Part shown: positions 24,101 to 60,103 of the stretch, one piece after another | Layout: each line of letters opens with the position of its first letter | Position numbering within the stretch: position 1 is the stretch's first letter | From: Chiloscyllium plagiosum | Lineage: Eukaryota | Reading direction: 5' to 3' | Length of the DNA: 64,000 nt | NCBI RefSeq assembly: GCF_004010195.1 | Contig: NC_057719.1 | Location: 14,072,364 to 14,136,363, forward strand | Program-made: the position numbers and the translations under genes | The notes under the pieces: model-generated | What the model was told of the DNA's origin: nothing | Database searches by the model: none | What the model saw: the letters and a program-made list of their open reading frames with translations, nothing else

Positions 24101-27100
24101 GCAAATTAGGAAATGGTGATTTGATGAACAAGAATATGGTTCTTGTTGATTTCAAACTCATGGTGGGGGGCTGAAATTATCAGATGTCAGACAATCAATT
24201 TGACCATTTACAGACTCTGGTCAGAGGTCGTGCTGAGCTGGGTGTTACCAGCATACACAGGGAAGCTGGATGAAATCACTCCAATGATAACTTCTAAGCT
24301 TAAGTAGCACCAGTATTAATGGCATAAAGTAGGAAGAAAAGCTGCTGTAGGCATTTCTCAAGCTTTTGAAGGAAATTAAGTTAATGCAATCCTAGCAAGC
24401 TGGATGACTATAGAGCAATGGTGTGGTCATCCCCTCAAATGGTAGATGGATTGGTTAACAGCATTAAAGCCTACTGACAGATCAAAGGAAGGATGATGTT
24501 CACCTTATTAAGGAAACATACTGTCTACATTAATACTTCCCCTTTGAAAAGTAAACTGAAATTACCAGGCTAGCAGGGTGGCTTATGACAGCAATCACAA
24601 TCGTGGAATGGCAGATCACAAATGAGCATCCCTTGTCTGTGCAGTGCATCCCACAGGAAAAAGATCGTAACGAATTTTTAAAAATGAACAAAATTACATT
24701 TACATGTGTGATGTTTCTATGGGACAAAAACTATAATAACACCAGTAAACACAACAAGCATTTAAAAAAATATACACACACACACACACACCTGTCATCT
24801 GGGTTTATTGCTGTATCCACAATGAATTTGTACTGGAATCCTGAGCAGCCTCCTCCTTCGACTTGTACCCTTAGGACCTCACCCTTTTCCAAAATCAGCT
24901 GTAGGCGCTGTAACACACATTTTGAATGTAGACTTTAAGCCGTAATAATTTGTAAGCTTCATAAAGTTACTACAAAATACAGAGATCAATTAGCAGGATA
25001 TTTCATGAAATGAATTATATTACATTACATTGTCGGAAATCGCTTGTGCTATGGTTTAGATCGTCACACGGACCCAAGGCTAGAATTCAGAGCAGACCAG
25101 TTGAAAAAATGTCAGGATGCTATCGAGTTTGAGAGGGCTGCAAACAAGTTACTAAGTACCGAGCACAGCAGAAAATTGCTCATATTTCTGTACTAATTGG
25201 CAATGTCATACTATAAACAACATTACAATGATTCAGACTAACAATCCTCTCCTTACCAATTTGGAATTTTGATATCCCCTCAGTAATCAACCATGATAAT
25301 GAGCGTGTTATTGGAATATTCCACTTTTTATTATCTTCCCAAGTCAAATTGTAATGAACACGGATTAATACTATTGAAACAAAAGCAAACAGTGTTATGG
25401 CCAGAATTGGAACTCTGGTTTTGGCCATAATGCTCTAAATATGAAATCAAAACTATTTTTTGGTCCAAATTAGGTGTCTCAGCCAGATTCCACCATGTTA
25501 CTAACTTTACCTTAACACAGCTATCACTGAGGAACACAATATCCTGTGGTGCAGCAGTCTGTGATTCTTGACCAACTGAAAACCATCTTTCAGTTACTCG
25601 TGATTGCCGGGATGATAAGATATGAATTTTGTCAGACAATAACACAGGACGGCTGGGTAAAGAAATGGCCAAACATGGCACCCTGTTAAAAATGTAAAAA
25701 TAAAAGAAATAGTCAGTTGGCAGAAAAGTGTGCAAAATGAAACACCAATTTTTAGATATGATTCAATAAGAATAAGAAAGGAATGCCATAACTGCATCTA
25801 CACTTTAAATATATTTAAACTGGTTGTCCAGTCAACTTGCTTTAATTTGTGAAAGAGGCCACAAAGTCAAATTCCACCATATTTCAGGTCAAATTCGTGC
25901 CATAGCTCCTGCTCGGGATTTGGGGCACAACATACTACAGGAAGTAGGAAAGAAAAAAAACTTTTATTAACACACCGGATCATCAACGCCACACTCACAG
26001 GAATCCGATTCACGAGAGAAGAAGAAAAGGATAGCCAACTCCCATTCCTAGACGTGATGGTACAGAGAACACCAGACGGAGAATTCACTACAAGAGTATA
26101 CAGGAAAGCCACACACACAGACCAAGTCCTAAACTATGAAAGTAACCACCCCAACACACACAAACAAAGCTGCATCANNNNNNNNNNNNNNNNNNNNNNN
26201 NNNNNNNNNNNNNNNNNNNNNNNNNNNNNNNNNNNNNNNNNNNNNNNNNNNNNNNNNNNNNNNNNNNNNNNNNNNNNNNNNNNNNNNNNNNNNNNNNNNN
26301 NNNNNNNNNNNNNNNNNNNNNNNNNNNNNNNNNNNNNNNNNNNNNNNNNNNNNNNNNNNNNNNNNNNNNGCCATGAAACGACACGACCAGCTATCCTTAG
26401 TAGCCACACACGCAGACAACAAGTAACATGAATTCGACTGGGACAACACTACTATCATAGGGCAAGCCGACAGAGAACAGCCAGGGAATTCCTAGAGGCA
26501 TGGCATTCATCCACAAACTCCATCAACAAACACATCAACCTGGACCCAATATACCAACCACTACAGCGAACAGCTGAAACTGACAACCGGAAGCGGCAGG
26601 GACAGACCACTATAAACACCGGAGGAAACATCAAAGAAGCGCTTCACAGGAGGCTCCCAAGAACTGATGATGTTGCCTAGGCAGGGGACGAAACGTTTGC
26701 AACAAAAACTTCCAGCTCGGCGAACAGAACCACAACAAACACTTTTATTAACTGAAATATGTCCAAATCTGAGATTCTTCAAATCTACTGGACTTTGAAA
26801 GTGGTAACATTCTATTCATGATCATCAAGCATTGAAAATTATAATGAAAATTTAAGACCGTTGACCATGTCTTATCAATTGTCTAAACACCAAAAAACTG
26901 ACAGCCATAAGAAATGCATAATGTTGAATTAACCGGTCAGTAATCCTGCCAAACTGAAAAATCTTTGCCAGTCTGTACAAAGTAATTTAGCTCCCTAACT
27001 ATTAGACTCACAGTGATCAATCCCCTGACTATGTCAGCATTTTTGTTAAAAGACTTGAATTAGGAGCTGCATAAGATCAGTGGGTAAGAGGTTTACTCCA

Positions 27101-30100: not shown

Positions 30101-33100
30101 AGAAGTGGGTGCTGCAGATGCTAGAGATTAGAGTGGTGCCGGAAAAGCACAGCAGGTCAGGCACCATCAGAGGAGCTGGAAAATCGGTGTTTCGGGGAAA
30201 AGCCTTTCATCGGGAATGATGAAGGGCTTTTGCCAGAAATGTCAATTTTCCTGCTCCTCGGATGCTGCCTGACCTGCTGTGCTTTTCCAGCACCACTTTA
30301 ATCTTGACATTTTCATGTATACCACATTGAGGAAATTTGAATTGATGAAGCTCAGCTTGTTTGCAGCAATAACGGGAGTAGCCCGAGAGAGAGCCCTTGG
30401 AGGTAGGATCTGGTGCCATTATTCTGCTAACGGTTTTAGAAACTTAACTTAAGCCTGGCATATTGGTATGTTATAATGTAACATTGATGCCAACAGTAAA
30501 TAAAAGGTAATAACTTAAACTGAACTGTCTATAAGAGTTTTACATTCCAAACTGCCAGAGTACAGAGTATAATCTCTGGGAGGAACTAAGAGAGGCTTAC
30601 AGGTGGAGTCCATTAGGGGTTCCCTGAGCCGTCTCGAATAGCTACTTTAGCACCCCTCATAATCCTTTAACCGGTTAGTGAAAAATCTGTCTGTTTATCT
30701 CCTCCTTAAATTTAGTGTCTCGGCATCCTCCCACAGTCCAAAGATGTGCAGGTTAGGTGAATCGGTCATGCTAAATTGCCCGTAGTGTTAGGCGAAGGGG
30801 TAAATGTAGGGGAATGGGTCTGGCTGGGTTGCTCTTTGGAGGGTCGGTGTGGACTTGTTGGGCCAAAGGGCCTGTTTCCACACTGTAAGTAATCTAATGT
30901 AATCTAATCCACCTCACTCTAGTGTAGTGAATTCTACAGATTCACAACTCTTGAGAGAGAAGTAATTCCTTCTCAACTGTTTTAAATCTTCCATCCCTCA
31001 GCCTAAGACTATGATCCCTCATTCTAGATTGCTCCATAAGGGGAAATAGCCAATCAGTGACTCCTTTGTCAATCACTGTTAGCATTTTATATACCTCAAT
31101 TAGATCTGCTCTCACCCTTCTAAACTCTAGCAAGTATATTTCTAAACTGCTCAATTTCTCTGAAGACACGTCGGGAAAGAATCTAATAACCAGCCCTTAA
31201 CTTTCTACAATGCAATTACATCATTCCTCTAGTCAGGGAACCTAAACTGTGTGGATTACTCCTGATGTGGTCTCACCATATCCTGTACAGTTACAGCAGC
31301 CCTCCTCTACCTTTATACTACATTTCTTTATTAATTAATGCCCTTTAGTAATTAATATTCCTACAATACCTGCATACTAGCTTTCTGTACTGAAAGACTC
31401 TGAAATTTCTCTTTAAGTTGCCTTTTTATTCTTCCAATATCCCAAATATTGGCCTATTCATCTAACCTATCCATATGTAATTTTCTTACTTTTTCATTGC
31501 AACTTACTTCGACATGATTTTAGTGTCATTTTCAAATTTGGCTAGAGTACATACATCCTATCCCTGCATCCAAGTCATTATTATATATTGTAAATAGTTG
31601 AAACCCTGAGGACTCTCAATAGCACCCAACTAGTTACTGCATGGAACCTGAAAAAGACCCATTTATTCTGACTCTCTACTTTGTTGGATAGCCAACCCTC
31701 ATCCAAGCTAATAAATTATTGTGGCACGATGGTATTGTCCCTACCTCTGAGCAAGGAGGTCCGAGTTCAAGTTTCACCTGCTCCAGAAGTGAGGGATAAC
31801 ATCTGAGCAGGCTATTGTAGAAGTAAATAAATTGACTATACACCCCATGCGATTTTACTTTGTGTATTAACTTTTTGTGTGGCACCTTATAAATGAATCT
31901 ACATATACATCTACAAGGCCCCTTCCCTTATCTACTTTGTTACAACTTTGAAAAATTCTAGCAAATTACTCAAAACATAATTTACCCTTCATAAAACCAT
32001 ATGGAGTCTGATGGGATTGTGTTATCCTGTTATTACTTCCAGATATAGACTAATTGGTCTATATAGTTTCCTACCTTCCGCTTTCCTCCCTTTTTGAATA
32101 AAGTATTATATTAACATTTTTCCGAAACCATCCTAGAAGCCAGAGAATTCTGAAATACTATCACCATTGCATCCACAATCTCTGCTACCACTTCTTTAAT
32201 ACTTTTGAATTCATACATATCTGCACTTTAAGCAGCGTAATTAGATAAAAAAACTACATAAGATGAAATGCAATAAGAATTCAATTCTATACACTCCCAA
32301 ACTCACAGTTGGAAACAAGTGGACAGAAAACTACAATACGATTTTATTTTCCCCTTTACAACAATATTAAACCTACGGGCAGTGGTACAGTACTCCATTG
32401 AGAAGGCATTCTCATACAGTTTGGGTCATGACAATGCATGGCAGCACAACAATGTACGAGCAATGCTTGAGCAAGCCTGAGAGCTGGAACCAATTTAAAT
32501 GCAAATATTAACAATGCGCAAGGATGAGTGTAAATAAGCATTCAAGTAGAAAGACTGTTCCTGGTCAGGTTAGGTGAATTGACCAAGCTAAAACTACCCA
32601 TAGGGTTCAGTAGGTAGGTGCATTAATCAGGGGAATTGGGCTGGGTGGGTTACTCTTTGGAGGGTCAGCGTGGACTTGTTGGGCCGAAGAGCATGTTTCC
32701 ATGGATTCGTGAACTGTGGTTGAAATATTACAGTTTGATTAGGTGAGATTACTTAGTGTGGAAAGAGGACCTTCGGCTCAATAAGTCCACACCGACCTGC
32801 CGAAGCACAACCCACCCGGACCCATTCCCCGACATTTACCTAACACTACGGGCAATTTACATGGCCAATTCACCTAACCCGCACATTTTTGGGCTGTGGG
32901 AGGAAACCGGAGCACCCGGAGGGGACCCACGCAGACATGGGGAGAATGCGCAAACTCCACACAGTCAGTCGCCTGAGGCGGGAATTGAACCCGGGTCTCT
33001 GGGCTAACCACTGTGCCACCGTGGAACCTTTTTAAGGTAAATTTGAACTAAGTTCTTGCAGCTTTTAAAATATCTCATCCCTTTTGACTACATAATGCTG

Positions 33101-36100
33101 AAAACAGATCTATTAAAACTCCGTTTTTTTTAAGCGACTGCAACATTGAGCAACTACACTAAAAATTCAAGTTTGCATTCTTGCATTTGTAGTGTTGAAG
33201 GTCAAGTGATAAAGCTGTGTTAAATGTAAACCAAGGTCAGTTAGGGGTTCCAATTCAGAATATCAAATTTAATGTGCGTCATTTTATCAATTCCAACAAA
33301 TGTTGTGACTTCTTATATTTAAGTGAATGACTTGTAATGCGGAACCATTTAAAAAAAAATTAAAACACTAGTTCATAGTTCACATTGGTTTAAAATTATT
33401 CTTTTGAAATCAGTTGCAAAAATAATCCATGTACATGTATTATTGCTAACATTTGCGATAATGGTTTTATTTTAACAAAAAACATACCAACTATTGTCAA
33501 AGCTCCATCAAACAGGTATAATGGTGACAGAAATGGTCAGACAGATGACTAGTCAGTTTAATTAGAGTTGTAAGGTACTGTCAAACTATTATATGACTTG
33601 TTCAACCAAGATAAATGTATAAACAAGAAATACAAGTTCCGCATGCATTTGATGGATTTGAATCCAAATAGAAATTTGAAATCCTGACTTAGTTCTTTTA
33701 TCAATGATGGCCCATTGAAAACGCTAATACCTAATAGAGGAATATACAGGTGTGGAGGATTTTCACTAAAAAGTCATAGATCGAAAACATTATACAGAAT
33801 TTTGTTGGAGGTGCTGAGGTTCTCTCCAGTGGCTTAGAAAACTGATGAAAACTCCATGTTGTTTCTTCCAAGAAGCCCTTCTGAACCATGTCATCAGGTA
33901 GTGGTGAGGCCACCAGTGGAAACAAGACCTTTGAGATGAGAAGTCCCAACCAGTAAAACCTGCTTGGTGAAATATTAGCAACTTGACCTCAGCAGCTTCA
34001 CGAAACAGGCTGCAGTGCTGACGGAAGACCAACCTCCCCCACAGATACAGGTCTCTGAAGTACCCAGGCCACAGCTAAAGTTAGAATAAAAAGGTTGTCA
34101 GTTGGGAAGTCATGGGGAAAACAAACGAAAAAAGGGTAGTGGAGTCAAAAGCAAGGTTGGTGAGGATTAGCTCCCAGTAGCTGTAACAAACTGAAGGCAG
34201 AATACAACAGTGAGGTTCTGAGAGAGTTATAGGGACAAAGGGCCAGACTTAACAACTGCTGAACAATTCATTCAAGCACTGCTAACAGTTCCCTGTTGCT
34301 TTTATTCACTAGTGTGGTTTGGGCACTGCCAGCCAGCGTTTAGTGACCACCCCTCATTGCCCATGAGAAGGTGGTAGTGAGCTGCCTGCTTGAAACCCTG
34401 CAGCCCATGTGTTGTAGGTTGGCCCACAATATCAATAGGGAGGAAACTACTGGATTTTGAAGCAATGACAGTGAAGCATTGGTGATATATTTCCAAGCCA
34501 TGACAGTGAGTGGCTTGGAGGGAAACTTGCAGGTGGTGGTGTTCCCTAGCACCGCTGCCCTTTCCTTCTTGTTGGAAGTGGTCGTAGATTTAAGGCACAG
34601 TCTAACGACTTTGAGTATTTGAATGTCACCCAACATTCTCTTGTTAATGGCATTGTTGATCCTGCTGTTCATTTTGATGCTGCGCTCTTTGATGAAAGTC
34701 CTTAGAGTGACCTGAGGACACTCATCAAATCGATTAGAAGTTGTTTGACAGCATGAACACAGGCTCTTCAGCTTATGCCCAGCCTGAAGAAGGGCTTATG
34801 CCCGAAACGTCGATTCTCCTGTTCCCTGGATGCTGCCTGACCTGCTGCGCTTTTCCAGCAACACATTTTCAGCACCTATCTACTCTAGTCCCACTTTTCA
34901 GCACTTTTAAAAAAAAAAATTCATTCACAAGAAAAAAGGACACCACTGGTGAGGACAACATTTTAGATGTCCATTTTAGAAGGCAGGTAAAAGTCAAACA
35001 GATTGCTATGTATCTGGAGTCACATGTAGACCAGGTAAAGATGGCAGTTTCCTTAAAGGAAGCATTAGTGAATCAGATGGGGGAAATTTTTTCCCCGCAT
35101 CCAATAATCGACAATGGATTCATGGTCATCATTAGATCTTAATTGCAGATTTTTTTTATTGAATTCAAATTCCACTATCTGTCATGTGGGTTTTGAATAT
35201 TATCTGGGGATCTGGATTAACTGTTTAGATTCCCTACAGTATGGAAACAGGCCCTTCAGCCCAACAAGTCCACACTGACTCTCCGAAGAGCATCCCACCT
35301 AAACCCATTCCCCTACATTTATCCCTGACTAATGCACCTAACACTATGGGAAATTTAGCCTGGCCAATTCACCTGACCTGCACATCTTTGGACTGTGGGA
35401 GGAAACCAGAGCACACGGAGGAAACCCACGCAGACACAGGGAGAATGTGCAAACTCCACACAGACTGTTGCCAGAGGTGGGAATTGAACTCAGTTCCCTG
35501 GCACTGTTCCCTAGCCTTGCATGCAATTTCACTTTAAGTGATCATCTAAATATTTCTGTATTGTGGTGATAGATCCCACTTCTACTTTTTATTTTTTAGG
35601 CAAGGAGTTCCAGATACCCACCAACTTTGGATGAAAAAAAATCCTTAAATCCCCTCTAAACCTTTCTGCCCTTTAATCTTAAATCTATGCTGACTCGTTA
35701 TTGATCTCTAGACAAAAGGGAAATGTTTCTTCCTATCTACCCTGTCTATTCCGTTTGTCATTTTGTAAACTTTAAGTCAGATCCTCCTGTCAGCCTTCCC
35801 TGCTTTGGAGGAAAACATCCCGAAGCTGTTTAGTCCCTCTTCAGATTGAGCCAAGATAACATCTTGCACACTCTAGCGCAATTATAACCTTCCTGTAGTA
35901 AGGTGATCAGTCCTTCACACACTCCTCCCTCTGTGGCTTGACTTAACTTCTCTGCTCTTGTATTCACTAATAAAGACAAGTATCCCATATGCCTTTGTAA
36001 CCTCCTAAATCTACCAAATCTTGCTGCCCTCAAAATCTACAGATGTACACCAAGGTACCTCTCATCCTCTGTACAGGTCATTCTGCTATAACATACGTTT

Positions 36101-39100
36101 CACTAATACACAATTGACGAACTGGGACACAGTTTCTAAAGTGTGAACTTTTAAAGCATGTCCTCATTAGAACATGATTCTAGCCCCATTAATTTAAATG
36201 GCACTGTTTTTACACAATTTTTTAATAAACAGGATTGTACAAGAACACAACTACCATGTTATAGCAGAACTGACTGTACTTCATCGGGTACTACAATCCC
36301 TTGCTTTATTAGGCCTCACAAAATGCATGAGCTGAAAATGTGTTGCTGGAAAAGCGCATCAGGTCAGGCAGCATCCAAGGAACAGGAGAATCGATGTTTC
36401 GGGCATGAGCCCTTCTTCAGGAATCCTCACAAAATGCATCACTAGATAATTTTCAAAATCAAATTCTATTTGCTATTATTCTGAACTTCTGGCCAGCCCA
36501 GCCAAATCATCCTTTCTAGTCTAAGGCTTTCCTCGTTGCTACTTACCACACTACCAATTTTCAAGTTATTTGCAAACATACTAATTAAATCTGTCAGACC
36601 ATGTCTAATTCATTAATCCATACTGCAACAGAAAGGGACCCTTGTGGTATGCCATTTGTCACAAGCTTCCAGTCACAAAAACAACCTTGACCATCAACCC
36701 TGCCTCTAAGCCAATTTTGGATCTAAGCTGCCCTGGATCTATGAGCTCTTCTTGACTAGTCTCCCATGCAAGACCTCATCACAAGCCATACTGAAGTTCA
36801 GGTAGAATACACACTCTGCACAACCCTCGTCCATACATCTAAGTTACCTCCTTGGAAAACTCTTACCAGTTTATTTTTATCAAAACTTGATTGGATAGAA
36901 ATGTTCCAGCACAGTTTCTTCTTCTGGTCATTGAACAGTTTGTCACCAAGGGATGCAAGCAAATACAGCATGCCAGCCTTATCCACTTCACCAGGGCCAG
37001 CCTGCCTTGCCAATGATTTCATGGAGAATTTTATGGACGTCACGAGATTCTTCTTGGCCAATGACACACTCAGGCCACAGTCTCCACCAAACATCTTTCC
37101 TACAAGTCGACATGACTTTAGTATCACTGATTTCATGATATGATGATGCCCTTATGACGTTACCATTTCAACATTTCTTGTCTGGTGGTACATTCTTACC
37201 ATCCTTTGTACTCATGAGTTGGGGGAAGGTACGATGAAGGCAATTGGTGATGAATTTTCACATTGCTTACTGTGCCAATGATGTTGACAGGAAAAACAAC
37301 TTCATGTTTTCAGACACTTCAACAAGGCTGATGAGATAATCTAGGCAGTTCGTTTACAGGAACAATACTTTGAAGGTAATATTTTCAGGCACAATATGCC
37401 CTCCAGGAGGAATGGTATACAGACAACCCTTTTGTTGGGGTAGCCTCTCAATGCCTGTGGTATCCTGGATTGGTATAGCACTAATAGATGACATTTAACA
37501 TTGTTTTGTTTGGTGGGATTACTGTAGGTAGTCAGCTAACATATGACTGCTCCTGGCAATTTTATCTCCTTTTGCAACATTCACTGGGGCACACAATTCC
37601 AAAAAAGTCTCTATTTAATCAACGTTGAGAATTTATTTTGCTGACTAGCCATTTTTTCCAATGATTCCATTCCAATTGAAAGGACATCCATCAACTGCTC
37701 CTATATCAGCACTAGCATGCCTTGTGAGAAAGCTAATGTGTGTACTTTTCCTGAAACAATTGAACCATTCAAGATTAGCAGCGAAACTGACTGGATTCAT
37801 ACACTGCTCATTCGGCAAGATCTTATGCAGGTTTTGTTTTCCTCTGATCACCAAACTAAGATATCTGAATTAGTTTCAACCTTTGATTCAGAAAGCCAAG
37901 AGTCTTTCCACATTCTCCATAATGTTGCTTTCAAACCAACGCACCCCACCAATTTTCTCAGCATTGCCACAAATTGTTCTCACTGTCAGGGACTAGCCCA
38001 GGTCTCTGGCAGGTCATTCTCCTGCTTAAGGCATCTGATGACAGCTAGTCTTACTTTGAGGTATTTGGATTTTCATGATCATTTTGCATCCAGCAGCTTA
38101 GTATCACCACTGGTTAGGTATTTATGGCTCACATTGAAAAGGGATTGCAGCACAAGTTTGGAATAAGGGATTTTAAATTAGCTCTCTGCCTCACTTGTTC
38201 TTCCACTGATTTAAAGTGGCTCCTTGCTCATGTACAGTGGACAAAGCAGCCACCAGAAGAATCATATTTATGTTCTGCACTATAAAGCTTCTTGCTGTAG
38301 AAGATTCTGTGTAATACTAATTGTTCTGTGCAGAAGAAACAACTCAAAAGTCTTCAAATTAAAATGAAGATCTACAAAATGTCACAAAACCTCTATGGTA
38401 CAATGTTCCTTCAAAATGGCAAAACATCACCTTTCACAGGGCCAGACGCGCAAAATCAAAGTTTTGTTGCTGACAGATGTACACAATCGCTTTAAAGTCC
38501 CCGTTACTTTAAAAATAGAGACCGTAACTTTTCTAAAAGAGAAATAGGACCTAAACACAAAAAACTTTGTTAAAATGAAACCAGACAACTTCAAACATGA
38601 AGTACCTGCACACAATGGAACAAGCATTTCCAGGAAGTTCCACAAGTTTTTCTGAGAGACAACTGAAAACAGGCTGCTGTCTCCATTTTCACCCTCTGAA
38701 GGGTTGGGACCAGGTTTCCACAGAAACAGCCACAGCAAGAAATCAAGAACCTTCAATAACTGACATGCATAGCTGCCATTTAAGAGTGAGGTCCAGCAGC
38801 ACCTTTTCAAGAGCAACCAGAGATGGGCAATAAATGTTAGTCAAGTCAGTGATGTCCGCACTTCATGAGTGAATTTATAAAAAAGCACTGTGACTGCACC
38901 AATAAACAAACTAATTTTACTGCTCAAAGACAACCAAAGAACTCTAAGCCATGTTTTATTTTAGGATAAAATAATAAAAGAACTGCAGCTGTTGGAAATC
39001 TGAAACAAAAACAGAAATTGGACTTGATATGTTAACTGTGCTTTTCTTAAAGAAAAATGCTACCAAACCTACTGAATTTCTTCAATTAGTTTTTGTATTA

Positions 39101-41534
39101 CTTTATCCTTCTTGTATTGGACACCATTCCCCTCTAATTTTGCATCTGTGCGAGCAGAAATAACTGCATGAAGGCTATATGCACTTGTATTTGTCAGAGA
39201 AATTTGCCCAATAGGTTAGAGATCACAAAAAACAGCTCGAAGTGAAATTGACAAATAGTTTATTGCAAGCTATATGGCTGGAAGAGAAATTGACCCAGGC
39301 TGACACAGAACTGACAGTCTGTACAGACTGATCAAAGTTAAAAAAAAAAATCACACAACACCAGGTTATAGCCCAACAGGTTTAATTGGAAGCACACTAG
39401 CTTTCAGAGTGACGCTCTGATGAGGGAGCGTCGCTCCGAAAGCTAGTGTGCTTCCAATTAAACCTGTTGGACTATAACCTGGTGTTGTGTGAGTTTTAAC
39501 TTTGTACACCCCAGTCCAACACTGGCATCTCCAAATCAAACAGATCAAATTTCTCTTCACAGAACGGAGGATGACACCAGTTTTATAGTAATGCTGCACA
39601 ATGACACTGATTAAGAAATGGGAAACTACAATGTTTCTGGAAATGGAGTAATTTAGTTGCAAGGATGCTAATTGGAAAATAATTTATCAGATGAATGTCC
39701 TGTTCCTTCACACAATGCAACATTCTGACAGTATCATGATTCCATTCATCTTCACAAGTAGGTGTTAAAGGTATTTTCTGAAGTGGTGAGGTGCTTCCAT
39801 TGTCCTGTGGTGCCTTTCTGTCTGACTTGCTCTTGGTGTGACTTTGGTATTGCTGGGTTATGAAACTGCCCTTAGGGCTTTGAGATCTCTGTCATGTCCA
39901 TGGGAGATTAAAATGTACTCCATTGTCTGCGTGCTGTCTGACCCAGCTTGTGAGTTGCTCATGAATTCTGCGGGTCCTAGTACAATTTGGCTAATTTGCT
40001 TTTGTGAGTGAGCAAATCTTTTTCCACAGTATTCGTAGCAATTAGTTTTGGATATGGTTTGCTCGCTGAGCTGGAAGGTTTGTTTTCAGATGTTTCGTCA
40101 CAATACTAGGTAACATCATCAGTGAGCCTCCGGATGAAGCACTGGTGGCTTGGCCTGCTTTCTATTTATGTATTTAGGTTTCCTTGGGTTGGTGATGTCA
40201 TTTCCTTTTTTTTCCTCAGAGGGGTGGTAAATGGGATCCAAGTCAACGGGTTCCAGGTGGAACTCTTGTGCGTGTCTCTATTTGGCTTGTTGTCCCAGTT
40301 GAAGTGGTGTCCTTCCTCATCTGTATGTAAGGATACTAGTGAGAGTGGGTCATGTCTTTTTGTGGCTAGTTGATGTTCATGTATCCTAGTGGCTAGTTTT
40401 CTGCCTGTTTGTCTAATGTAGTGTTTGTTACAGTTCTTGCAATATATTTTGTAAATGACATTAGTTTTGTCTGTTGCCTGTGTAGGGTCTTTCAAGTTCA
40501 TGAGCTGCTGTTTTAGCATACTAGTGGGTTTGTGGACTACCATGATGCCAAGAGGTCCTAATAATCTAGCAGTCATTTCTGAGATGTCTTTGATGTAGTG
40601 GAGTGTGGCTAGGATTTCTGGACATCACAGGAACCAGGATTCACCCAAGTGGGAGCCTCTGCCAGAGAATTTGTTTCTGAAGACACCGGGTGCAGGCAGA
40701 GACTCCCTGGTGAACATAATCTCCTGGAACAAGAGGCCCTTTGCTGACAGAGACAGCCCATTTGGTGGGCAGCAAAGGAAACCTAAATACATAACTCACC
40801 ACAATCGGCAAGTACGTCATATAAAAATAAACAGCTGCAGATACTGGAGACCTGTAACCGTGAAAAAGAACACACAGAAATTGCTGGAGAAACATGGTCG
40901 ATCTTAGCAGCATTAAGACCGTAAAACATAGGAGCAGAAATTAGGCCATTCAGCCCATCAAGTCTGCTCCACCATTCAATCATAGCTGATAAGTTTCTCA
41001 ACCCCATTCTCCCACTTTCTTTCCATAACCCCTGACATCGAAGAACCTATCTCCATCGATGACCTGGCCTCCACAGCCTTCTATTAGAGAAAAACAATAA
41101 CAACTGCAGAGACTGGTGCTTGTCCACAGCCTTTTGTGATAATGAATTCCAGAGATTGACCGCTCTCTGGCTGAAGAAGTTTCTCCTTATCTCCATTCAA
41201 ATAAAAAAAAAGTCTTCCCTTTACTCCACGGCTGTGCCCTCAGGTCTAGTCTCTCCTACCAATGGAAACATCTTCCCCTACACCTACTCCGTCCAGGTCA
41301 TTCAGTAAATTTCGATTAGATCTTCCCCCCCAACCCCAACCCCAACCCCAATCCTTCTAAACGCCATGGAGTACAGACCCAGAATCCTCAAATATTAGCA
41401 AAAATAAAGTAAACACCACGTGACCCATCTCCTGTGATGATGGACCAATAACTTGCTATTGTGGCTCACCTCCTCCGACAAAGCGAGACAGCAGCTGACA
41501 GTAGGGTTTTCCTCAGAGGCCCAGTCGCTATCAT
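20928..41534 (-). CDS. ISCA2: Iron-sulfur cluster assembly 2, mitochondrial; join(41534..41470,25682..25511,24907..24792,21102..20928), 175 aa
   Basis: Exons of 65+172+116+175=528 nt with consistent phases (2,0,2) and GT-AG introns. A-type carrier motifs [11 protein letters not shown] and GCSCGSSF are present, and the N-terminus is basic and targeting-peptide-like. Confidence 0.95.
21205..21540 (+). mobile_element. Second tRNA-derived SINE family (related pieces at about 1320-1590, 29020-29230, 34915-35220)
   Basis: tRNA-like head GTGTAGTGGTAAT..GGTTCAAATCCC; related copies occur on the - strand. Confidence 0.55.
22170..23420 (-). mobile_element. CR1 LINE RT fragment in ISCA2 intron 3
   Basis: [20 protein letters not shown] and DFSKAF motifs. 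Confidence 0.92.
23518..23758. repeat. 121-bp direct tandem duplication
   Basis: ATCATTATCCATTCCAGTATCAGG... at 23521 and 23642, with 3-4 differences. Confidence 0.95.
24792..24907 (-). CDS. ISCA2: ISCA2 coding exon 3 ([38 protein letters not shown])
   Basis: GGGCSG motif; acceptor TTACAG and donor AG|GTGTGT; 116 nt. Confidence 0.97.
25511..25682 (-). CDS. ISCA2: ISCA2 coding exon 2 (VPCLAISL...[11 protein letters not shown])
   Basis: Acceptor TTTTTAACAG and donor AAG|GTAAAG. Ends in LSDSCVK, like the vertebrate LTDSCVQ. Confidence 0.92.
25972..26740 (+). mobile_element. Penelope-like retroelement, 5'-truncated (RT C-term, gap, 3' end with hammerhead)
   Basis: [18 protein letters not shown]...[19 protein letters not shown]; 12-bp TSD ACTTTTATTAAC at 25960-25971 and 26741-26752. 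Confidence 0.92.
26664..26697 (+). ncRNA. Minimal hammerhead ribozyme core in Penelope 3' end
   Basis: CTGATGA-T-GTTGCCT-aggc-AGGGGAC-GAAA-CGTT. Confidence 0.65.
30660..32200 (-). mobile_element. Old CR1 LINE fragment with nested SINEs
   Basis: [28 protein letters not shown]. Confidence 0.7.
32740..33022 (-). mobile_element. HE1-like V-SINE (other - copies at about 6630-6900, 13745-14020, 15035-15317, 35225-35505, 47278-47525, 55715-56050)
   Basis: Reverse complement of the same SINE. Confidence 0.88.
34784..34811 (+). ncRNA. Minimal hammerhead ribozyme core (Penelope-type)
   Basis: CTGAAGA-A-GGGC-ttat-GCCC-GAAA-CGTC. Confidence 0.7.
35530..36830 (-). mobile_element. Old CR1 LINE fragment with nested MITE and Penelope tail
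   Basis: Decayed similarity to the other CR1 copies in the window. Confidence 0.6.
36074..36276. mobile_element. Tc1/mariner (pogo/Tigger-like) MITE
   Basis: TIRs CAGGTCATTCTGCTATAAC / GTTATAGCAGAACTGACTG, flanked by TA on both sides. Confidence 0.8.
36830..38200 (-). mobile_element. Highly decayed pogo/Tigger-like transposase remnant
   Basis: [21 protein letters not shown] and ILNVD fragments appear in the order expected for CENP-B/pogo transposases; many stops and frameshifts. Confidence 0.5.
39334..39538. mobile_element. Palindromic Penelope-tail-like insert, family D (others at about 1632-1765, 9095-9207, 58050-58210)
   Basis: ~80-bp inverted arms around an intact hammerhead core; shared CCAATTAAACCTGTTGGACTATAACCTGGTGTTGTG. 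Confidence 0.7.
39417..39445 (+). ncRNA. Minimal hammerhead ribozyme core (Penelope-type)
   Basis: CTGATGA-G-GGAGC-gtc-GCTCC-GAAA-GCTA. Confidence 0.7.
40045..40620 (-). mobile_element. Penelope-like retroelement fragment (GIY-YIG endonuclease + 3' end)
   Basis: [29 protein letters not shown]; hammerhead core at 40122-40089. Confidence 0.9.
40089..40122 (-). ncRNA. Minimal hammerhead ribozyme core in Penelope 3' end
   Basis: - strand: CTGATGA-T-GTTAC-ctagtatt-GTGAC-GAAA-CATC. Confidence 0.55.
40920..41390 (-). mobile_element. CR1 LINE 3' end
   Basis: AACATAGGAGCAGAAATTAGGCCATTCAGCCC tail and decayed ORF end. Confidence 0.7.
41470..41534 (-). CDS. ISCA2: ISCA2 coding exon 1 ([21 protein letters not shown])
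   Basis: ATG in context AGGATGA; Arg/Leu/Ser-rich with no acidic residues. Donor AG|GTGAGC is phase 2, matching exon 2. Lies at the edge of a CpG-rich region. Confidence 0.85.
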
Positions 41535-43681: not shown

Positions 43682-43709
43682 CTGAAGAAGGGCTAATGCC
43701 CGAAACGTC
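43682..43709 (+). ncRNA. Minimal hammerhead ribozyme core inside the minisatellite
   Basis: CTGAAGA-A-GGGC-taat-GCCC-GAAA-CGTC. Confidence 0.7.
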
Positions 43710-51500: not shown

Positions 51501-54500
51501 TTACCATACTAAATAGGATCGACTTCAAACAGATCTAGCAGCTCAAGACTGGGCATCCGTGAGGCGCTGTTGGCTATCAGCAGCAGCAGAATTGTATTCC
51601 AGTACAATCTGTAACCACATGGTCCAGCAAATCCCCCACGCAACTATTACCATCAAGCCAGAGAGCAACGCTGGTGCAATGAGGAGTGCAGGAGGGTACC
51701 CCAGGAGCAGTACCAGGCATACCTAAAAGGAGGTGCCAACCTGATGAAGCGACCAAGCAGGATTACTTTTGTGTCAATACCATAAGCAGCAAGTAATAGG
51801 CAAAGCCAAGCGATCCCACAACCAACAGATCAGAATTGAGCTCTGCAGTCCTGGCATGTCCAGTTATGAATGGTGCACAACTAAACCACTGACTGGAGAT
51901 GGAGGCTCCACAAGTATCCCCATTCTCAATGGTGAAAGGCCCAGCACATCAGTGCAAAAGATAAAGGTGAAGCTTTGACAGCAAACTTCACTCGGAAGTG
52001 CCAAGTGGGTGATCTATCTCTGGCTCCTCCAGAGGTCTCCAGCATTAGAGTTACCAGTCTTCAGCCAATTCGGTTCACTCCATGTGACATCAAGAAATGG
52101 TTGGAGAGATTGGATACTGCAAATGCTATAGGGTCTGACATCATTCTGGCATTAATACTGAAGACTTGTGCTTCAGAACTTGCCACTCTCTTCACCAAGC
52201 TGTTCCTTTATAGTTACAACCCTGGCATCTACCTGACAATGTGGAAAATTGCCCAAGTATGTCCTCTATATCAAAAGCAGGACACATTCAACCCAACCAA
52301 TTACCACCCTGTCAGTCTACTCCTGATCATCAGCAAAGTGATGGAAGGTGTAATCAACAGTGCTATCTAGCAGCACCTTCTCAGCAATAACCTGCTCAGT
52401 GACACCCAATTTGGGTTCTGCCAGGCCCACACAGCTCCTGACTTCATTACAGTCTTGGTTCAAACATGGACAAAAGAGCTGAATTCCAGAGGCGAGTGTG
52501 ACAGCACTGACATCCAGGCTGTATTCGATAGTGTGACATCAAGGAGCCCTAGCAAAATGAGAAACAGTAGGTATCGAGAAAAACTGTCATTGTTGGAGTC
52601 ATACATGGCACGATAGATATCCTCGAGGTGAAATGGAGGTCAGCCATTTCACCTCTAGGATATCTCTGCAGGAGTTCCTCAGGGTGGTGCCCCATGCCCA
52701 ACCATCAATGACCTTCCCTCCATCATAAGGTTGGAATTTGGGCAATCATTGGTGAATACCCCCATGTTCAGTTCCATTCATGACTCTCACTGAAGTAGTC
52801 CATTGTGCGTGGTGTGCTGCTACCTAGTCTCCTGAAGGGGAGCAGACTTAACAGAAAACTCCGAGCCCCGGAAGAAATCAATTATCCAAACGAAATAGTG
52901 CCTGCCCATCTCGTTTGGATAATCAAGGTTCCTCTGTATACGTCTAAACTCTCCTCGTAAGACAATCCTGTCATATCCAGGATCAACCAGATGAAGCTGC
53001 TCTGGACTCCCTCCAAAGGCAGTACAGAACAACTTTGATTCACCAAATGAGACTAATGGTGAGTATCTTGTTCAGATAACCGATTGTTCGGATAACTGAT
53101 CTGATCGTAAACAACGGAAGCATTTGTGGGACCTTGAAGTCTTGTTTGAATAATCCAAAAATCGGATAATTGATGTTCAGATAACCATCCTTCCTCACTT
53201 AATTGGAGAAAAGTTGTTTCCAATCCACTGCTTTGTCTGTTCAACTGTTCTTCTCTATCTTTGAACTCTATCCCCACCTATCATTTGCTCTGTCTCCACA
53301 CACACACACACACACACCCCTACCTGTATGTAAACCCACATTATTCTAGCTATCATCAGTTTGGACGAAGGGTCACTGAATCAAAATGTTAACTGATGTC
53401 TCTTCACAGATGCTACCAGACCTGCTGAGCTTTTCCAACAATTTGGTTTTGGTTTGAACTGAGTGATGTTTGTTGTGACACCAGTCATTCTTTTGACGGA
53501 CTACCTTTGTCTTTCCAGCACTTGTTTTGTGAACGCGACATATTGTGTGGTCTTAGAAATGTGACTAAATTACAGGTGAACCAACTGGCATTTATTTCCA
53601 CTTATCACAAAGTTTTTACTATTTATATTGATAGATTATAAAAGCTAATACTGTTTTGCTTTGAATATAACTTGGATCACTGTCACCAAAAGAATCAGAC
53701 TTAGAATTGTATCGACACTGTCTTGATCTTTTTAATCCCTAAAATAAAGTTTAAACCCAGCTCTGGTTGATGGCAGAATCTCCCCTTGCTGTGCTGTTGC
53801 CGAATAAAATTAATTGTCTCCAATTTCTGTCAGTCACAACACAAATAATCAGCAGAGACTTGAAAGATATCCATGATCTCAGGAGGTTAGTTCAATAACA
53901 GTGGGGATTCAGTTGCTTATTCAAATAGAATGCAGCGTCTGACTAAACTAAGGAAGGTCTTGCCCGAATGTGAAAAGTTTCTAAAATGACTTGCTTAAAT
54001 TTTCATTGCTGATGAACTAGGTGAAATGTAGCCAAATGCCATAGCGGACCTGTGTCCTCATCTTTATCTCAAACCAGGTGATGGAACTGGAATTGCAGGC
54101 ACAGTTGTGCATTTTGCTGGTTGGTTCTAACTTTTTTAATGTAGGTTAACCATATTGTAATCTGTTTTCTAGCCACCTTGAGTAAGACCAGTGAAGCCAA
54201 GGTTTTTGGTATCCTAGAAGGGCTTCCAGTTCCTTTTCCTATTCCTAACCCTGATGGTTGTAAATCTGGAATTAAATGCCCCATCCAAAAGAACGTGAAA
54301 TACAGCTACGTCGCTTCACTACCAGTGAAAGAGACCTACCCAAAGGTAAGTGTTTTCATGAAACATTAAAATGCATAATAATATCGCTTTTACTTGATCG
54401 TTTCGTGGCCTGTTTGCTCAGCAAGATTTTGAAAAATTTTGTCGATCAAACAACATACTTTTATTGTCTGACTAAGTGGAATCATTTGGAACAAATCTGA

Positions 54501-55402: not shown

Positions 55403-55433
<31 letters not shown>

Positions 55434-56377: not shown

Positions 56378-58588
56378 ACCAGATCACGAAATACTAACCC
56401 CAACAAGTGCTCCTTGTATCTGGATACTGTGGATAATTAAGCCAGACTTCTTTGGAAGAGATTTTTTGATATTTTTACAAAATCTTGTAATTTTGGAACA
56501 CAGTTTTTAAAATTTAATTATGAATTGTCCTTTGATTTAATGCTAAGAGTTCTTGTAACTTAACCTTATTAGGCCATTAAAGGCATTAACTACAAGTTGT
56601 GTGTGCTGTTGCTTTAAATTAAGAGAATATAAATGGAGAAAATGAACAAGTTAAATGATTCCTGATTCTGAACCTCTGTTGTTGAGGTGTCATTCAAACT
56701 CTCCCATGGGTAGTCAGTGGTTCTTGGCTTTATTTGTCATTTTCTAAGAGAATGAGCCTAGTTGATGGGGGAAGATTGTTGTTTCCTGTTGCAGTGTTTG
56801 AAAATTGCCTGACCTGGTCCATCTCTCAACTTCCCATCTGCATTGAGTTCTTTCCAGTGTTGAGCAATTCTTGCTTTCCAGTTCCCCTGCTCCGAGCTAT
56901 TTTTGACTTCCTGGCAGACTTCTGTATTCATTCAGGTGATGTGGGCTTTACTGGTTAGGCCAGCATTTATTGCTCATCCTTGGATTCCTAAATTTTGTCT
57001 TTGGCAATGGAGATTGCCTGTCACTTGGTCACCCTGGGCCTGGGTATGGTGCAGATCTTGCTGGACTGCATCAGTATCGAGAGGAATCACTAATCAAAAT
57101 GAACACTGCAATCATCGGGGAATTTCTCTTCTTTGTGGGGCAGAAGGTCATTAATGAAGCAGCTGAAGCTGAATGGGCTAAGGACCATACCTGAGAGAAC
57201 GCATGCAGAAACTTCCTAGATCTCATATGACTGAGCAACAATCACAACTGTGTTTTGTGCTAAATATGACTCTTACCAGCAGAGTTCTCCCCGGTTCCCA
57301 TTGACTCTAGTTTTGCAAGGAATTTAAGTGTGAGCTGCTTCATGCAAGGATGTTGCGAAACTCTTATCTTTCCTGAACTCTTTCAAGGATGTTGCCAGGG
57401 TTGGAGGATTTCACCTATTGGGAGAGGCTGGCTTGTTTTCCCTGGAGCATCAGAGGCTGAGGGGTAACCTTATAGAGGTTTATAAAATCATGATAGGGTA
57501 GTCAAGTCTTTTCCCTGGGGTGGGGGAGTGCAGACCTTGGGGGCATAGGCTCAGGGTGAAGGGAAAGATTTAAAAGGGATCGAAGGAGCAAGGTTTTCAC
57601 ACAGAGTGTGGTGTATGTATGGGATGAGCTGCCAAAGGAAGTGGTGGAGGCTGACAGAATTACAGCATTTTAAAAGGTATCTGGCTGGGTATATGAATAG
57701 GAAGGGTTTGGAGGGCTTTGGGCCAAGTGCTGGCAAATGGGACTAGATTAGGTTAGCATGACGAGTTGGACTGAAGAGTCTATTTCCGTGCTGTACATCT
57801 GAGTCCTCGATTCCACACTTGGTCAGTTGTGGAGTTGCTGTTCATGGCAGTCATGTTCTATTCCTCTGGAGTTTGATTCCTGCCTGAAGTTTGGATCAAG
57901 ATAGGAAAAAGGGTCTATGTGCCACTAATGGAATGTAACTGAGTGACAGTGAGCAGATTATTGCAAAGCAAATGCTGCTTGACAGCTCTGTTGATAACCC
58001 CTTCATCACTTCACTGATGATCAAGGGTAGACTGAGTTGTAAATGGAATGGTGTTGTAATTACAGTTACATCACACTGTAAATTTTTGCTATAAATTCTG
58101 TGCCTTAGAATTGTCCTCCACTATCACCTGATGGAGTGGTGCTCCGAAAGCTAGTGTGCTTCCAATTAAACCTGTTGGACTATAACCTGGTGTTGTGATT
58201 TTTAACTTTGTAAATGGAAGGTTGTATTTGCTTTGTTCTGTGTACAGGAAATTTCTGGGTAATTTTCCAAATTCCTGAGTGGATGTATTGGAACAACCTG
58301 GTTACAGGAGCAGAAAGATTTGGAGCACCAATCTTTAGTACTGTTGGCAGAACATTGTCATGGCCCATCCAATGCAGTCAGCTATTTTCTAAAATCTGGA
58401 ATGAATAAAATTGTCTGCAGACTTCAGATCCCTTGCATCCCAGTCTGTAAAGGAAATTAAAATGGATCATCTACTCCAGTTAAAGATGGCTGCAGAATCG
58501 GTCTTATTTTTTGTGCTAGGCTCCTCCATCATGGAAGGTAGGAATATTTGTGGAGCTGCCTGCTCCCTGGAGTTATTTAATTAACCTC

Positions 58589-58815
58589 AACCACAGATTC
58601 TATCAACAAACACATCGACCTCTACCCAATATACCGACCGCTGCAGCGGACAGCTGGAACTGACAACCGGAAGCGGCTGAGACAAACCGCTATAAATGCC
58701 GGAGGAAACAACACAAGTGCTTCACAGGAGGCTCCCAAGCACTGAAGATGTCACCTAGACAGGGGACGAAATGTCTGCAATACAAATTCCCAGCTTGGTG
58801 AATAGAACCACAACA
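58589..58815 (+). mobile_element. Penelope-like 3' fragment (same family as 25972-26740)
   Basis: Highly similar to 26510-26736; 12-bp TSD TTAATTAACCTC at 58577-58588 and 58816-58827. Confidence 0.9.
58742..58775 (+). ncRNA. Minimal hammerhead ribozyme core in Penelope 3' end
   Basis: CTGAAGA-T-GTCACCT-agac-AGGGGAC-GAAA-TGTC. Confidence 0.6.
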
Positions 58816-59765
58816 TTAATTAACCTCCTCCAATCAGCAGGACTGTGAAGCTTGGATCTGATCAATTTGTTGTTTAAACTGCTTATTCCTGTATGTCACT
58901 TACTGCTTTGGCATGCAAGCAGTCCTGTGTTGGGATATAGCAGATTGATGACTTTTAGGTATATTTGGCACTACTTATGGCATGCCCTCCTGCACTCCCA
59001 TTGAACCAGGGTTGATCCCCTTGCTTGGTCATGATGTTTGAGTTGGAATATGCCAGGCCATGAGGTTGCAATTTGTCTGTCTGCAATTCTGCTGATGGCC
59101 CATCGATGCCTAATGTGTTGAGATCTGTTTGAAATCCATCCCATTAAGTGGTCATTCTATGCAACTTGGTGTCCTCAGACGGCTTTCTCTCCAAAAGGGG
59201 TGAATGGTGGTAACTTCAATTTCTACTATAATAGACAAATGCATATGTGGCAGAGTTTAGTGAGGATCAGGTAAAGTAATTTTTTCTCCAATTGGTTCCA
59301 CTACAGATCTAGTCTAGCATTCAACCAGCTCGTCACTACTGGTAACGCTGAGCCACTCGTTGATAAACACACAGATGCCTCCGGCTCAATACATTCTATA
59401 CCCTTGCCTCCCTCTGTGCTACCGCTGGGTTGGGAGGGGGTGTACAGATGGTGGTTTATGGTAGTCGGTGGTTTCCTTGCCTGTGTTTGAACCAATGCTG
59501 ATTATTGAGGACTGTCAGAGTAACTATCTGTTATCTTCAGCACTGCTGGGCCTGCGCAAGTGGGTCAGTGCATACTCTAGAATACCCAGACCTGCAAACT
59601 CTGATTGCAGTTAAGTTTTATGAATTCAATCACTGAGGAGAAAGTGAGGACCGCAGATGCTGGAGATCAGAGCTGAAAATGTGTTGCTGGAAAGGCGCAG
59701 CACGTCAGGCAGCATCCAAGGAGCAGGAGAATCGACGTTTCGGGCATGAGCCCTTTCTGAAGAAG

Positions 59766-60103
59766 GTTTTCCTTATTGTCAGGTATATTGGGTTACACTT
59801 TTTATCGGGACAATCGCAAGCTGGTCAGAAGGGGGCCTGGTGTACTGTGATGAGACCATTATACCAAGTGCCATCCTCATAGGACTTAAGGTTTATCTCA
59901 AAGCTGCGGTACTGTCCCTGATTATCTACATCCCCACAATTTACTAAGCTGCATACATCAGCGTCTATTACTTGTGGATTATCAGATTCAGGAACTGTTA
60001 ATAATACATATGAAAATGATATTTGACAAAATCCCAATACTAAGAGGGCTAGCATCATAACTCTAAGCATTCCCAGTACTTTAAACAACATGCTGAAGCA
60101 CAA
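59766..60103 (-). pseudogene. env: ERV env N-terminal remnant
   Basis: Hydrophobic signal peptide right after pol; Cys-rich. After an in-frame TGA it continues PACDCPDKKCNPIYLTIRK, resembling the CNP motif of class I SU proteins. Confidence 0.65.

What the first reader, a model, noticed from the sequence alone, without database searches (positions are those of the whole stretch)
39417..39445. Minimal hammerhead ribozyme cores in at least four distinct repeat families
Seen: the order CTGANGA - stem II - GAAA - short segment ending in UH recurs at 39417, 34784, 43682, 26664, 58742 and 40122(-), with decayed copies at 5966, 7709, 16595 and 58128. Stem II differs by family but still pairs: GGAGC/GCTCC, GGGC/GCCC, GTTAC/GTGAC, GGTC/GACC. 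In the best-preserved copies the bases at GAAA form palindromes (ACGT, AGCT). Established: Penelope-like elements carry minimal type I hammerheads that are thought to cleave as dimers through such palindromes. Inference: this genome has a very high density of them (roughly 15-20 copies in 64 kb), and two families (B and D) have no visible coding parent in this window.
Basis: partly seen in the sequence, partly recalled or inferred. Interest (0 to 1): 0.72.

Follow-up and report, generated by a model that had tools for sequence, protein, structure and literature searches.

The report
Penelope retroelement hammerhead ends, mostly decayed
The small self-cutting-RNA motifs are real, but they are the known hammerheads at the ends of Penelope-like jumping genes in shark DNA, mostly broken, although one family's end also seems to work as a site where RNAs get their poly(A) tail.

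Summary
The motifs are real: 10 full minimal-hammerhead matches against 0.2 expected, with stems that covary between families. They are the minimal type I hammerheads of Penelope-like element (PLE) ends described in 2014, here in carpet-shark-like DNA. The scan has already noted them in this genome and another.

Corrections:
- Only 10 of 23 copies keep all boxes, and 1 also keeps the palindrome and stem I.
- The copy at 39417 lacks stem I and is locked in a fold-back.
- The GGTC family has no intact core and shares its tail with the GGGC family, which has a Neptune-type endonuclease fragment upstream of one copy.
- Only the GGAGC family lacks coding remains here, but reads show it continues upstream.

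Two additions:
- In the Poseidon-type family the ORF's start and stop codons both lie in stem-loop II.
- In one poly(A)-primed RNA run, 842 of 2759 laid reads carry poly(A) 12-15 nt after ATTAAA in the GGAGC module, with the hammerhead uncut.

Known kind, low to moderate interest.

The parts
39417..39445 (+). GGAGC-family (B) minimal hammerhead core at the finding's coordinates; boxes, extra base, 5-bp stem II and AGCT palindrome intact, H17 at 39445; no stem I 5' strand because the copy starts at C3
39346..39416 (-). inverted 5'-truncated partner of the 39417 copy (starts in stem II); with it forms a fold-back that hides the core
39446..39537 (+). B tail with ATTAAA and GU-rich stretch; 7-bp direct repeat at 39330 and 39543
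43682..43709 (+). GGGC-family (A) core; the only copy with boxes, palindrome and 2-bp stem I
34784..34811 (+). A core, boxes and ACGT palindrome intact, stem I lost at the 5' junction
36393..36420 (-). A core, boxes intact, palindrome lost by CpG decay; 15-bp target-site duplication
5966..5993 (+). A core, boxes intact, palindrome lost; head-to-head with the 5950 copy
5923..5950 (-). A core, boxes intact, palindrome lost; inverted partner
10248..10275 (+). A core, boxes intact, no palindrome, no stem I; in a fold-back insertion
15985..16449 (.). Neptune-type GIY-YIG endonuclease fragment (one part inverted on the - strand, C-terminal part on +) upstream of the A copy at 16595
   Evidence: tblastn of P0156
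16595..16722 (+). decayed A core plus tail, about 190 nt after the endonuclease end; a 20-N gap (16562-16581) lies between
25949..26680 (+). Poseidon-type RT/endonuclease fragment (N gap 26178-26369); last open frame runs from 26465 to a TAG inside loop II of the hammerhead (26678-26680)
26664..26697 (+). family C core; ATG at 26670-26672 is A9 + extra U + G10.1; ACGT palindrome kept, stem I broken
58587..58815 (+). family C end: endonuclease C-terminus, TATAAA at -51, core 58742-58775 (3-bp stem I, palindrome lost by CpG decay), tail
40089..40122 (-). family C core of a second subfamily; 5-bp stem II, 3-bp stem I with a compensatory change, palindrome lost
40289..40621 (-). Poseidon-type endonuclease-region fragment upstream of the 40122 core; 86% identical to a Stegostoma RT-bearing protein
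58049..58207 (+). B insertion with 12-bp target-site duplication; core 58128-58153 decayed (short deletion), native 3-bp stem I, 71 nt of upstream element sequence
58165..58185 (+). ATTAAA hexamer (58165-58170) and the places (58182, 58185) behind which family-B RNA reads carry poly(A)
7709..7819 (+). GGTC-family (D) copy; GAAA box broken; tail homologous to family A
53340..53455 (+). decayed D copy inside the ML-domain gene
1636..1765 (.). decayed B copy (core at 1685+) with inverted tail piece; AATAAA form of the hexamer
9085..9207 (+). B copy truncated inside stem II
30103..30308 (.). head-to-head pair of decayed A copies, 13-bp target-site duplication
3945..4022 (-). A copy with GAAA box broken; 14-bp direct repeat at the ends
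19951..20040 (-). A copy with GAAA box broken
59640..59770 (-). A copy whose first box is replaced at an inversion junction

Best explanation
The motifs are the minimal type I hammerheads in the terminal repeats (pLTRs) of at least three lineages of endonuclease-bearing Penelope-like retrotransposons: C (Poseidon type), A with its relative D (Neptune type) and B (parent not seen). The window holds their 5'-truncated insertions. Shown: motif anatomy, coding fragments upstream of C and A, inverted partners, target-site duplications, decay at CpG sites. Inferred from published work: reverse transcription starts in the tail just downstream of the hammerhead on an uncut read-through RNA and usually stops early, so the hammerhead is the part that almost every stump carries. 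Selection acted on the ribozyme in the parent elements, which is why stems covary between families, while single copies decay. In the parents the ribozyme probably cuts slowly, as a dimer or with help from the element's protein. In family C the cut would fall 28 nt after the A of the start codon, so it would separate the start codon from the ORF (inference: a protein-triggered off switch or late processing step). In family B a poly(A) site about 30 nt after the cut site ends the RNA, and the DNA copies run 25-70 nt beyond it, so their template must have been read-through RNA (inference). The dispersed copies here are almost all inactive as ribozymes.
For: 10 matches against 0.195 expected. 82.3% of cells paired against 61.6% shuffled and 21 against 9.6 double changes on 12 rows. 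Extra base and G10.1-C11.1 as defined in PMC4209133. RT/endonuclease fragments upstream of 3 of 3 C cores. GIY-YIG fragment matching a protein with a cysteine linker upstream of one A copy. The frame from the ATG in the C core aligns with the N-terminus of an 832-aa RT-endonuclease protein (P0008) and with the tandem junction in P0126, as in the anole element (PMC11167929). Direct repeats of 12-15 bp at 5 of 17 insertions tested. Palindrome losses in family A are CpG transitions in 6 of 7 cases. The family C palindrome is intact in most genome-wide copies (113 of 155 RNA reads; about 80% of contig depth). RNA reads run through the cut sites and no begin/end pile-up is listed. An unrelated PLE locus (L013) has the same anatomy with other stems.
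Against: No cleavage was measured. No coding sequence was found for B or D in the window or in metagenome contigs. The A-to-endonuclease link crosses a 20-N gap. Family A has only 2 bp of stem I plus a U-U mismatch, and its computed lowest-energy dimer uses a competing palindrome across the cut site, not ACGU. The covariation control does not correct for relatedness, the structure was drawn from these same sequences, and the pair-level count was not above chance (172 of 500 shuffles). Rfam has no model that hits these motifs. The N-terminal alignments are short (E 0.007 and 1.6 in a 155-protein set).
Confidence: 0.9

Rival explanations
1. Families B and D (and the many short A copies) are non-autonomous mini-elements or retrozymes with their own short master RNA, copied in trans by PLE proteins.
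For: 10 of 11 A copies begin within about 10 nt of C3 (read by eye), which looks like a unit boundary; no coding parent seen for B or D; non-LTR retrozymes derived from PLE ends are reported in vertebrates, one cartilaginous fish among them (10.64898/2026.07.22.740005).
Against: No head-to-tail tandem of cores in the window; copies do not start at the cut site, as a retrozyme monomer would; B extends 71 nt upstream in one copy and further in reads; D shares its tail with A; C copies have 5' ends spread over 150-700 nt.
Confidence: 0.12
2. The dispersed hammerheads are active host regulatory ribozymes kept by selection.
For: High density; B and C sequences are present in sense-strand poly(A) RNA.
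Against: 22 of 23 copies lack a box, the palindrome or stem I; losses follow CpG decay; the RNA reads are uncut; single motifs did not cleave in vitro in PMC4209133.
Confidence: 0.03
3. The motifs are chance matches amplified by repeat copying.
For: The core is short, and copies of one repeat are not independent; Rfam gives no hammerhead hit.
Against: Three families with unrelated tails and an unrelated PLE share the boxes, the extra base and paired stems with different letters; position matches published PLE anatomy.
Confidence: 0.01

Closest known systems
Minimal hammerheads (min-HHR) in pLTRs of metazoan Penelope-like elements (Cervera and De la Pena 2014, PMC4209133)
   Same: Type I order, no helix III, extra base between A9 and 10.1, G10.1-C11.1, palindromic 15.2-16.2, several consensus families per genome, mostly single truncated copies, some in opposite-strand pairs.
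   Different: Stem I is only 2-3 bp and stem II 3-5 bp (Schistosoma forms: 4-5 and 7-8). Density here (10 intact cores in 62.7 kb) is far above the 4,000 and 9,000 motifs given for coelacanth and Xenopus genomes, if this window is typical. No shark term in the supplement text searched (one file not searched).
Poseidon element of Anolis carolinensis, PAc (Frangieh et al. 2024, PMC11167929)
   Same: Family C: ORF starts at stem II, cut site 26 nt (PAc) or 28 nt (here) after the start; tail downstream of the hammerhead; RNA reads do not end at the cut site.
   Different: Here the upstream unit's ORF also seems to end inside loop II (TAG in 3 of 3 copies); that overlap is not stated in the main text I read. 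No full-length copy in the window.
EN+ PLE insertion structure: 5' truncation, inverted pLTR, tail, TSD (PMC3846280; PMC8557442)
   Same: Head-to-head inverted partners with palindromic junctions, optional tails, 7-15 bp duplications; Neptune type marked by a cysteine linker.
   Different: Most inserts here are only 80-200 bp.
Non-LTR retrozymes (PMC7229834, listing only; 10.64898/2026.07.22.740005)
   Same: Type I hammerheads, non-coding, PLE-related.
   Different: Retrozymes are head-to-tail tandems with a hammerhead in each unit; none is in this window.

Membership tests
PLE minimal hammerhead (min-HHR) | CUGANGA and GAAA boxes and UH in type I order around stem II | tested here: met
   10 of 23 copies, in families A, B and C; 0 of 3 in D
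PLE minimal hammerhead (min-HHR) | extra base between A9 and 10.1, G10.1-C11.1 pair | tested here: met
   extra base in 10 of 10 intact cores; G-C in 9, G-U in 1
PLE minimal hammerhead (min-HHR) | palindromic 15.1-16.1 without helix III | tested here: met
   4 of 10 intact cores; majority form in family C genome-wide reads
PLE minimal hammerhead (min-HHR) | stem I flanking the core | tested here: inconclusive
   3 bp in C (2 of 3) and in the one B copy with native flank; 2 bp plus mismatch in A; absent at 39417
PLE minimal hammerhead (min-HHR) | covariation between families | tested here: met
   21 double-change cells against 9.6 shuffled on 12 rows; relatedness not controlled
PLE minimal hammerhead (min-HHR) | self-cleavage as dimer or with protein | not testable with these tools
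   no assay; the RNA run shows uncut molecules only and could not capture a short 3' product
EN+ Penelope-like element, Poseidon type (family C) | RT plus C-terminal GIY-YIG ORF directly upstream of the pLTR; ORF start inside the pLTR | tested here: met
   clade label rests on lack of a cysteine linker in P0001/P0008 and on likeness to PAc anatomy, no tree was built
EN+ Penelope-like element, Neptune type (family A) | GIY-YIG with cysteine linker upstream of the pLTR | tested here: met
   P0156 has RT, linker and GIY-YIG and matches 16054-16449 and 46022-46168; link to the A core crosses a 20-N gap; no tree
EN+ Penelope-like element (families B and D) | RT/GIY-YIG ORF upstream | tested here: inconclusive
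   none in the window or metagenome scan; B continues upstream in reads; D tail is homologous to A
EN+ Penelope-like element insertions | 5' truncation, inverted partner, tail, target-site duplication | tested here: met
   12-15 bp repeats at 5 of 17 insertions (one of them inside a tandem repeat)
Non-LTR retrozyme | head-to-tail tandem units each with a hammerhead | tested here: not met
   nearest same-strand intact cores 3.7 kb apart and of different families; other parts of the genome not available

The most novel reading that the evidence does not exclude
The family B end is a portable polyadenylation cassette: ATTAAA, a cleavage site about 30 nt behind the hammerhead cut site and a GU-rich stretch all fit inside the 100-170 bp stump. 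At this copy density it would have seeded poly(A) sites into host transcripts across the shark genome, possibly including a long 3' UTR form of the ML-domain (NPC2-like) gene that ends in the copy at 58049-58207. Any copy with a live ribozyme could cut the poly(A) tail off the host RNA. In parallel, family C packs the stop of one ORF, the start of the next and the ribozyme's stem-loop II into about 11 nt.
Probability: 0.3. Interest if true: 0.55.

Novelty: new member of a known kind. Interest (0 to 1): 0.3.

Why it matters
The main finding adds a host group and a high copy density to a class described in 2014, so it matters little by itself. The role of these hammerheads is still open: cleavage is weak in vitro and not seen in RNA reads. 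Two details here bear on that question. In family C a cut would remove the start codon from the element's mRNA, which suggests a testable feedback role. In family B a poly(A) site lies just behind an uncut hammerhead and upstream of the end of the DNA copies, which separates the polyadenylated RNA from the template used for copying and could give host genes new 3' ends.

Tried and rejected
Rfam scan: no hammerhead family; only sub-threshold microRNA models on fold-backs. No whole genome is held, so genome-wide consensus, parent search and orientation bias in genes could not be done. Pfam missed the three candidate PLE fragments and a fourth ORF; they were placed by homologue searches instead. 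The homologue search with 15988-16434 found nothing; a better frame from a related fragment worked. The ORF at 34340-34795 next to the 34784 core is not PLE-like (no tblastn match). A family B pattern found 0 matches in metagenome contigs. A degenerate core pattern gave 12 viral-contig loci; 1 of 12 (L005) has a paired core at the match; not followed. The PLE profile found 4 metagenome loci; 1 of 4 (L013) has a convincing motif. Only 2 of 155 proteins passed my N-terminal pattern and only P0008 is a real match, so a start codon inside the core is not shown to be general. RNA run X22 laid 0 reads: no test. The run search listed no holder on record as RNA, which says nothing on expression. Summed contig depth was not used as a copy number. 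Dimer folding energies did not return the active dimer for any of 6 motifs and are uninformative for cleavage. No tRNA genes. Literature searches for a PLE poly(A) site (passages of PMC2377424 and the 2026 preprint) and for shark PLE hammerheads showed no such report in listings or passages; the library lacks most subscription papers.
Full report
Setting. The window is animal DNA rich in repeats. A coding fragment beside one motif matches RT-bearing proteins of Stegostoma and Chiloscyllium at 66-86% identity, and another matches a Chiloscyllium protein at 89%, so the host is carpet-shark-like. No whole genome is held. The finding does not define its family letters. I use A = GGGC/GCCC stem, B = GGAGC/GCTCC, C = GTYAC stem with long loop, D = GGTC/GACC.

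Observation. All six main coordinates carry CTGANGA, a paired stem II, GAAA, two bases and UH. A strict descriptor gave 10 matches in the window against a mean of 0.195 (maximum 2) in 200 block-wise dinucleotide shuffles. Rfam returned no hammerhead family among 13 matches. BLAST with ten window seeds gave 29 pieces; I placed 23 of them at or across the core. Of the 23, 10 keep both boxes, UH and at least 3 bp of stem II; 4 of these keep the palindrome, 6 have at least 2 bp of stem I, and 1 (43682) has both. Four rows of that table (30215-, 39420-, 53360+, 7378-) were anchored a few bases off; the alignments show that none has an intact core. All 10 intact cores have an extra base after A9. 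D has no intact core in 3 copies.

The copy named in the finding. 39417-39445 has intact boxes and the AGCT palindrome, but the insertion starts at C3, so the 5' strand of stem I is missing. An inverted partner (39346-39416) pairs with it in a fold-back of -117.8 kcal/mol, and the computed probability of the first stem II pair is 0.00. This copy is very unlikely to cut.

Families and covariation. Tails of A, B and C are unrelated (scores 11-14, within shuffles), while A and D share 30 of 33 nt (score 51, shuffle maximum 20). So there are three lineages plus a relative, and C has two subfamilies. I aligned 11 of the 23 window copies that span the core, plus a motif from an unrelated PLE locus L013. 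On 8 pairs, 82.3% of cells pair against 61.6% shuffled, and 21 cells change on both sides against 9.6 (0 of 500 shuffles each). The number of pairs with such a change, 6 of 8, was not above chance (172 of 500). The control ignores relatedness and the structure came from these sequences, so this is support, not proof. Single copies decay: in 11 A copies the two CpG sites in the core are CG in 6 and 4 copies, and most losses are CA or TG.

Parents. RT or endonuclease fragments lie directly upstream of 3 of 3 C cores. In the 26664 copy the last frame is open from 26465 to a TAG in loop II. The TAG is present in 3 of 3 copies, and two database proteins read through the motif in the same frame. A9, the extra U and G10.1 spell ATG. 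The frame from it aligns with the N-terminus of an 832-aa RT protein, P0008 (11 of 22 identical), and with the tandem junction in P0126 (13 of 22). This matches the anole Poseidon element, whose ORF starts at stem II (PMC11167929), and pLTRs that hold the first codons of the ORF (PMC3846280). For A, a GIY-YIG fragment at 15985-16449 lies about 190 nt upstream of the core at 16595 and matches P0156, which has the cysteine linker that marks Neptune elements (PMC8557442). A 20-N gap lies between them. No coding fragment was found for B or D. B is still not a free-standing 100-bp unit: the copy at 58049-58207 has 71 nt upstream of the core, and 563 RNA reads and 88 and 86 contigs continue from there in a shared sequence. 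Inverted partners and direct repeats of 12-15 bp at 5 of 17 insertions are the published PLE insertion marks.

RNA. I laid two poly(A)-primed single-cell runs and two contig sets on 57950-58950. X22 gave no reads. X21 gave 2759 reads, nearly all from other copies of B and C, and mostly in the orientation that means sense RNA. No place of many starts or ends was listed. Reads join the intact B core to the tail (308 and 220 loose ends), and C depth does not fall across the cut site (155 reads at 58772, 141 at 58781). So uncut RNA exists, as reported for the anole element. This library could not show a cut product of about 30 nt, so cutting is not excluded. In C, the palindrome lost in the window copy is intact in 113 of 155 reads. 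Unexpectedly, 360 and 482 reads carry poly(A) behind 58182 and 58185, 12 and 15 nt after ATTAAA (58165-58170). All 5 window copies of B keep ATTAAA or AATAAA and have at most 3 A in the next 20 nt, so priming on genomic A runs is unlikely for such copies. The shown rows of the DNA runs list no A run there, but 972 rows were not shown. The number of source loci is unknown and may be small. This B copy lies 1.8 kb behind the stop codon (56375-56377) of an ML-domain gene on the same strand (the label NPC2-like is my recall). Four to eight reads with this locus's letters lie upstream of it and none of that orientation downstream. That is weak, and a nearer ATTAAA exists at 56576.

How it most likely works. 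Shown: anatomy, parents for C and A, insertion marks, decay, uncut and polyadenylated RNA. Taken from papers: single minimal motifs did not cleave and dimers cleaved weakly (PMC4209133); the anole motif cleaved only with the element protein, and reverse transcription started in the tail on uncut RNA (PMC11167929). Inferred: stumps carry the hammerhead because copying starts just behind it and mostly ends early; the ribozyme is kept in parent elements, not in these copies; cis dimers cannot form here because same-strand intact cores are at least 3.7 kb apart; in C a cut would detach the start codon; in B the polyadenylated RNA is not the template for copies that run past the poly(A) site. 10 of 11 A copies begin within about 10 nt of C3 (by eye). 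That is not explained by cleavage, and it keeps the mini-element reading alive at low odds.

Known or new. The class, its anatomy, several families per genome and thousands of single copies were described in 2014. Retrozymes of PLE origin are reported in one cartilaginous fish (2026 preprint). This scan has eight listed notes on the same motifs, seven in this genome; none was returned for the poly(A) or start/stop words. Density is high: 10 intact cores in 62.7 kb, and PLE pieces make up about 7.7% of the window by my interval list; one window may not be typical. I found no report of a PLE poly(A) site behind the hammerhead, a limited search.

Papers seen. PMC4209133: parts 1-2 of 4 (abstract to start of methods) and a term search of its supplements, one file not searched. 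PMC11167929: parts 1-2 of 4 (main text). 10.64898/2026.07.22.740005: parts 1-2 of 5 and passages; its supplements are closed and may list shark families. PMC8557442, PMC3846280, PMC6765202, PMC6155905, PMC2377424: passages. PMC7229834: listing only. Lunse et al. (RNA Biol 14:1499): not held; known only through the review PMC6765202.

Verdict. Observation largely right, interpretation right in kind but too generous on function and on parentless families. New member of a known kind; interest 0.3, carried mostly by the poly(A) and start/stop details.

Noticed in passing
window 58165-58185: Family B reads carry poly(A) 12-15 nt after ATTAAA (842 of 2759 laid reads); possible distal 3' end of the ML-domain gene upstream.
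   Followed up: partly
window 45472-56377 (+): ML-domain (NPC2-like) gene: exons near 45472-45558, 51067-51174, 54173-54345 and about 56292-56377; contains a decayed D copy (53340-53455, sense) and an endonuclease fragment.
   Followed up: partly
window 45648-46767: A second Neptune-type GIY-YIG fragment (- strand) is interrupted by a 293-bp sequence that recurs inverted at 46475-46767 with 99% identity: a young insertion or inverted duplication in the first intron.
   Followed up: no
window 26611-26616, 58691-58696, about 40170 (-): TATAAA-like box about 50 nt upstream of the core in the three C copies: candidate pLTR promoter.
   Followed up: no
window 34835-34860, 7770-7810, 39490-39515: Tails of A, D and B each hold a branch-point-like word, a pyrimidine run and CAG, like a 3' splice site; no spliced joint was tested for A or D and none was listed for B.
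   Followed up: no
window 34808-34813 and other A copies: A second self-complementary word overlaps the cut site and gives the lowest-energy dimer, which would compete with the active ACGU pairing.
   Followed up: partly
window 60677-62025 (-): Endogenous retrovirus fragment: Gag p30 domain (E 5e-25) and a protease-like frame. Described only.
   Followed up: no
window 42050-44760: 43-bp tandem repeat array; the best-preserved A copy (43682) is inserted in it.
   Followed up: no
L013:119-152 (-): A metagenome contig with a distant PLE ORF carries an inverted minimal hammerhead with the U3-A8 core variant described for Schistosoma.
   Followed up: partly
L005:1501-1527 (-): A viral contig has a hammerhead-like core with extra base and 3-bp stem II.
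   Followed up: no
window 16443-16458, 40065-40080, 48117-48132: An identical 16-mer is shared between the 3' UTR of the Neptune-type copy and the tail of the second C subfamily; may be chance.
   Followed up: no
window 3277-3593, 15032-15256, 32733-33002, 35216-35507, 47275-47530, 55700-56038 and others: An abundant 300-bp SINE-like repeat family, and CR1-like RT fragments at about 1900-2400, 8600-8800, 10500-10800, 17700-19200 and 22250-22830.
   Followed up: no
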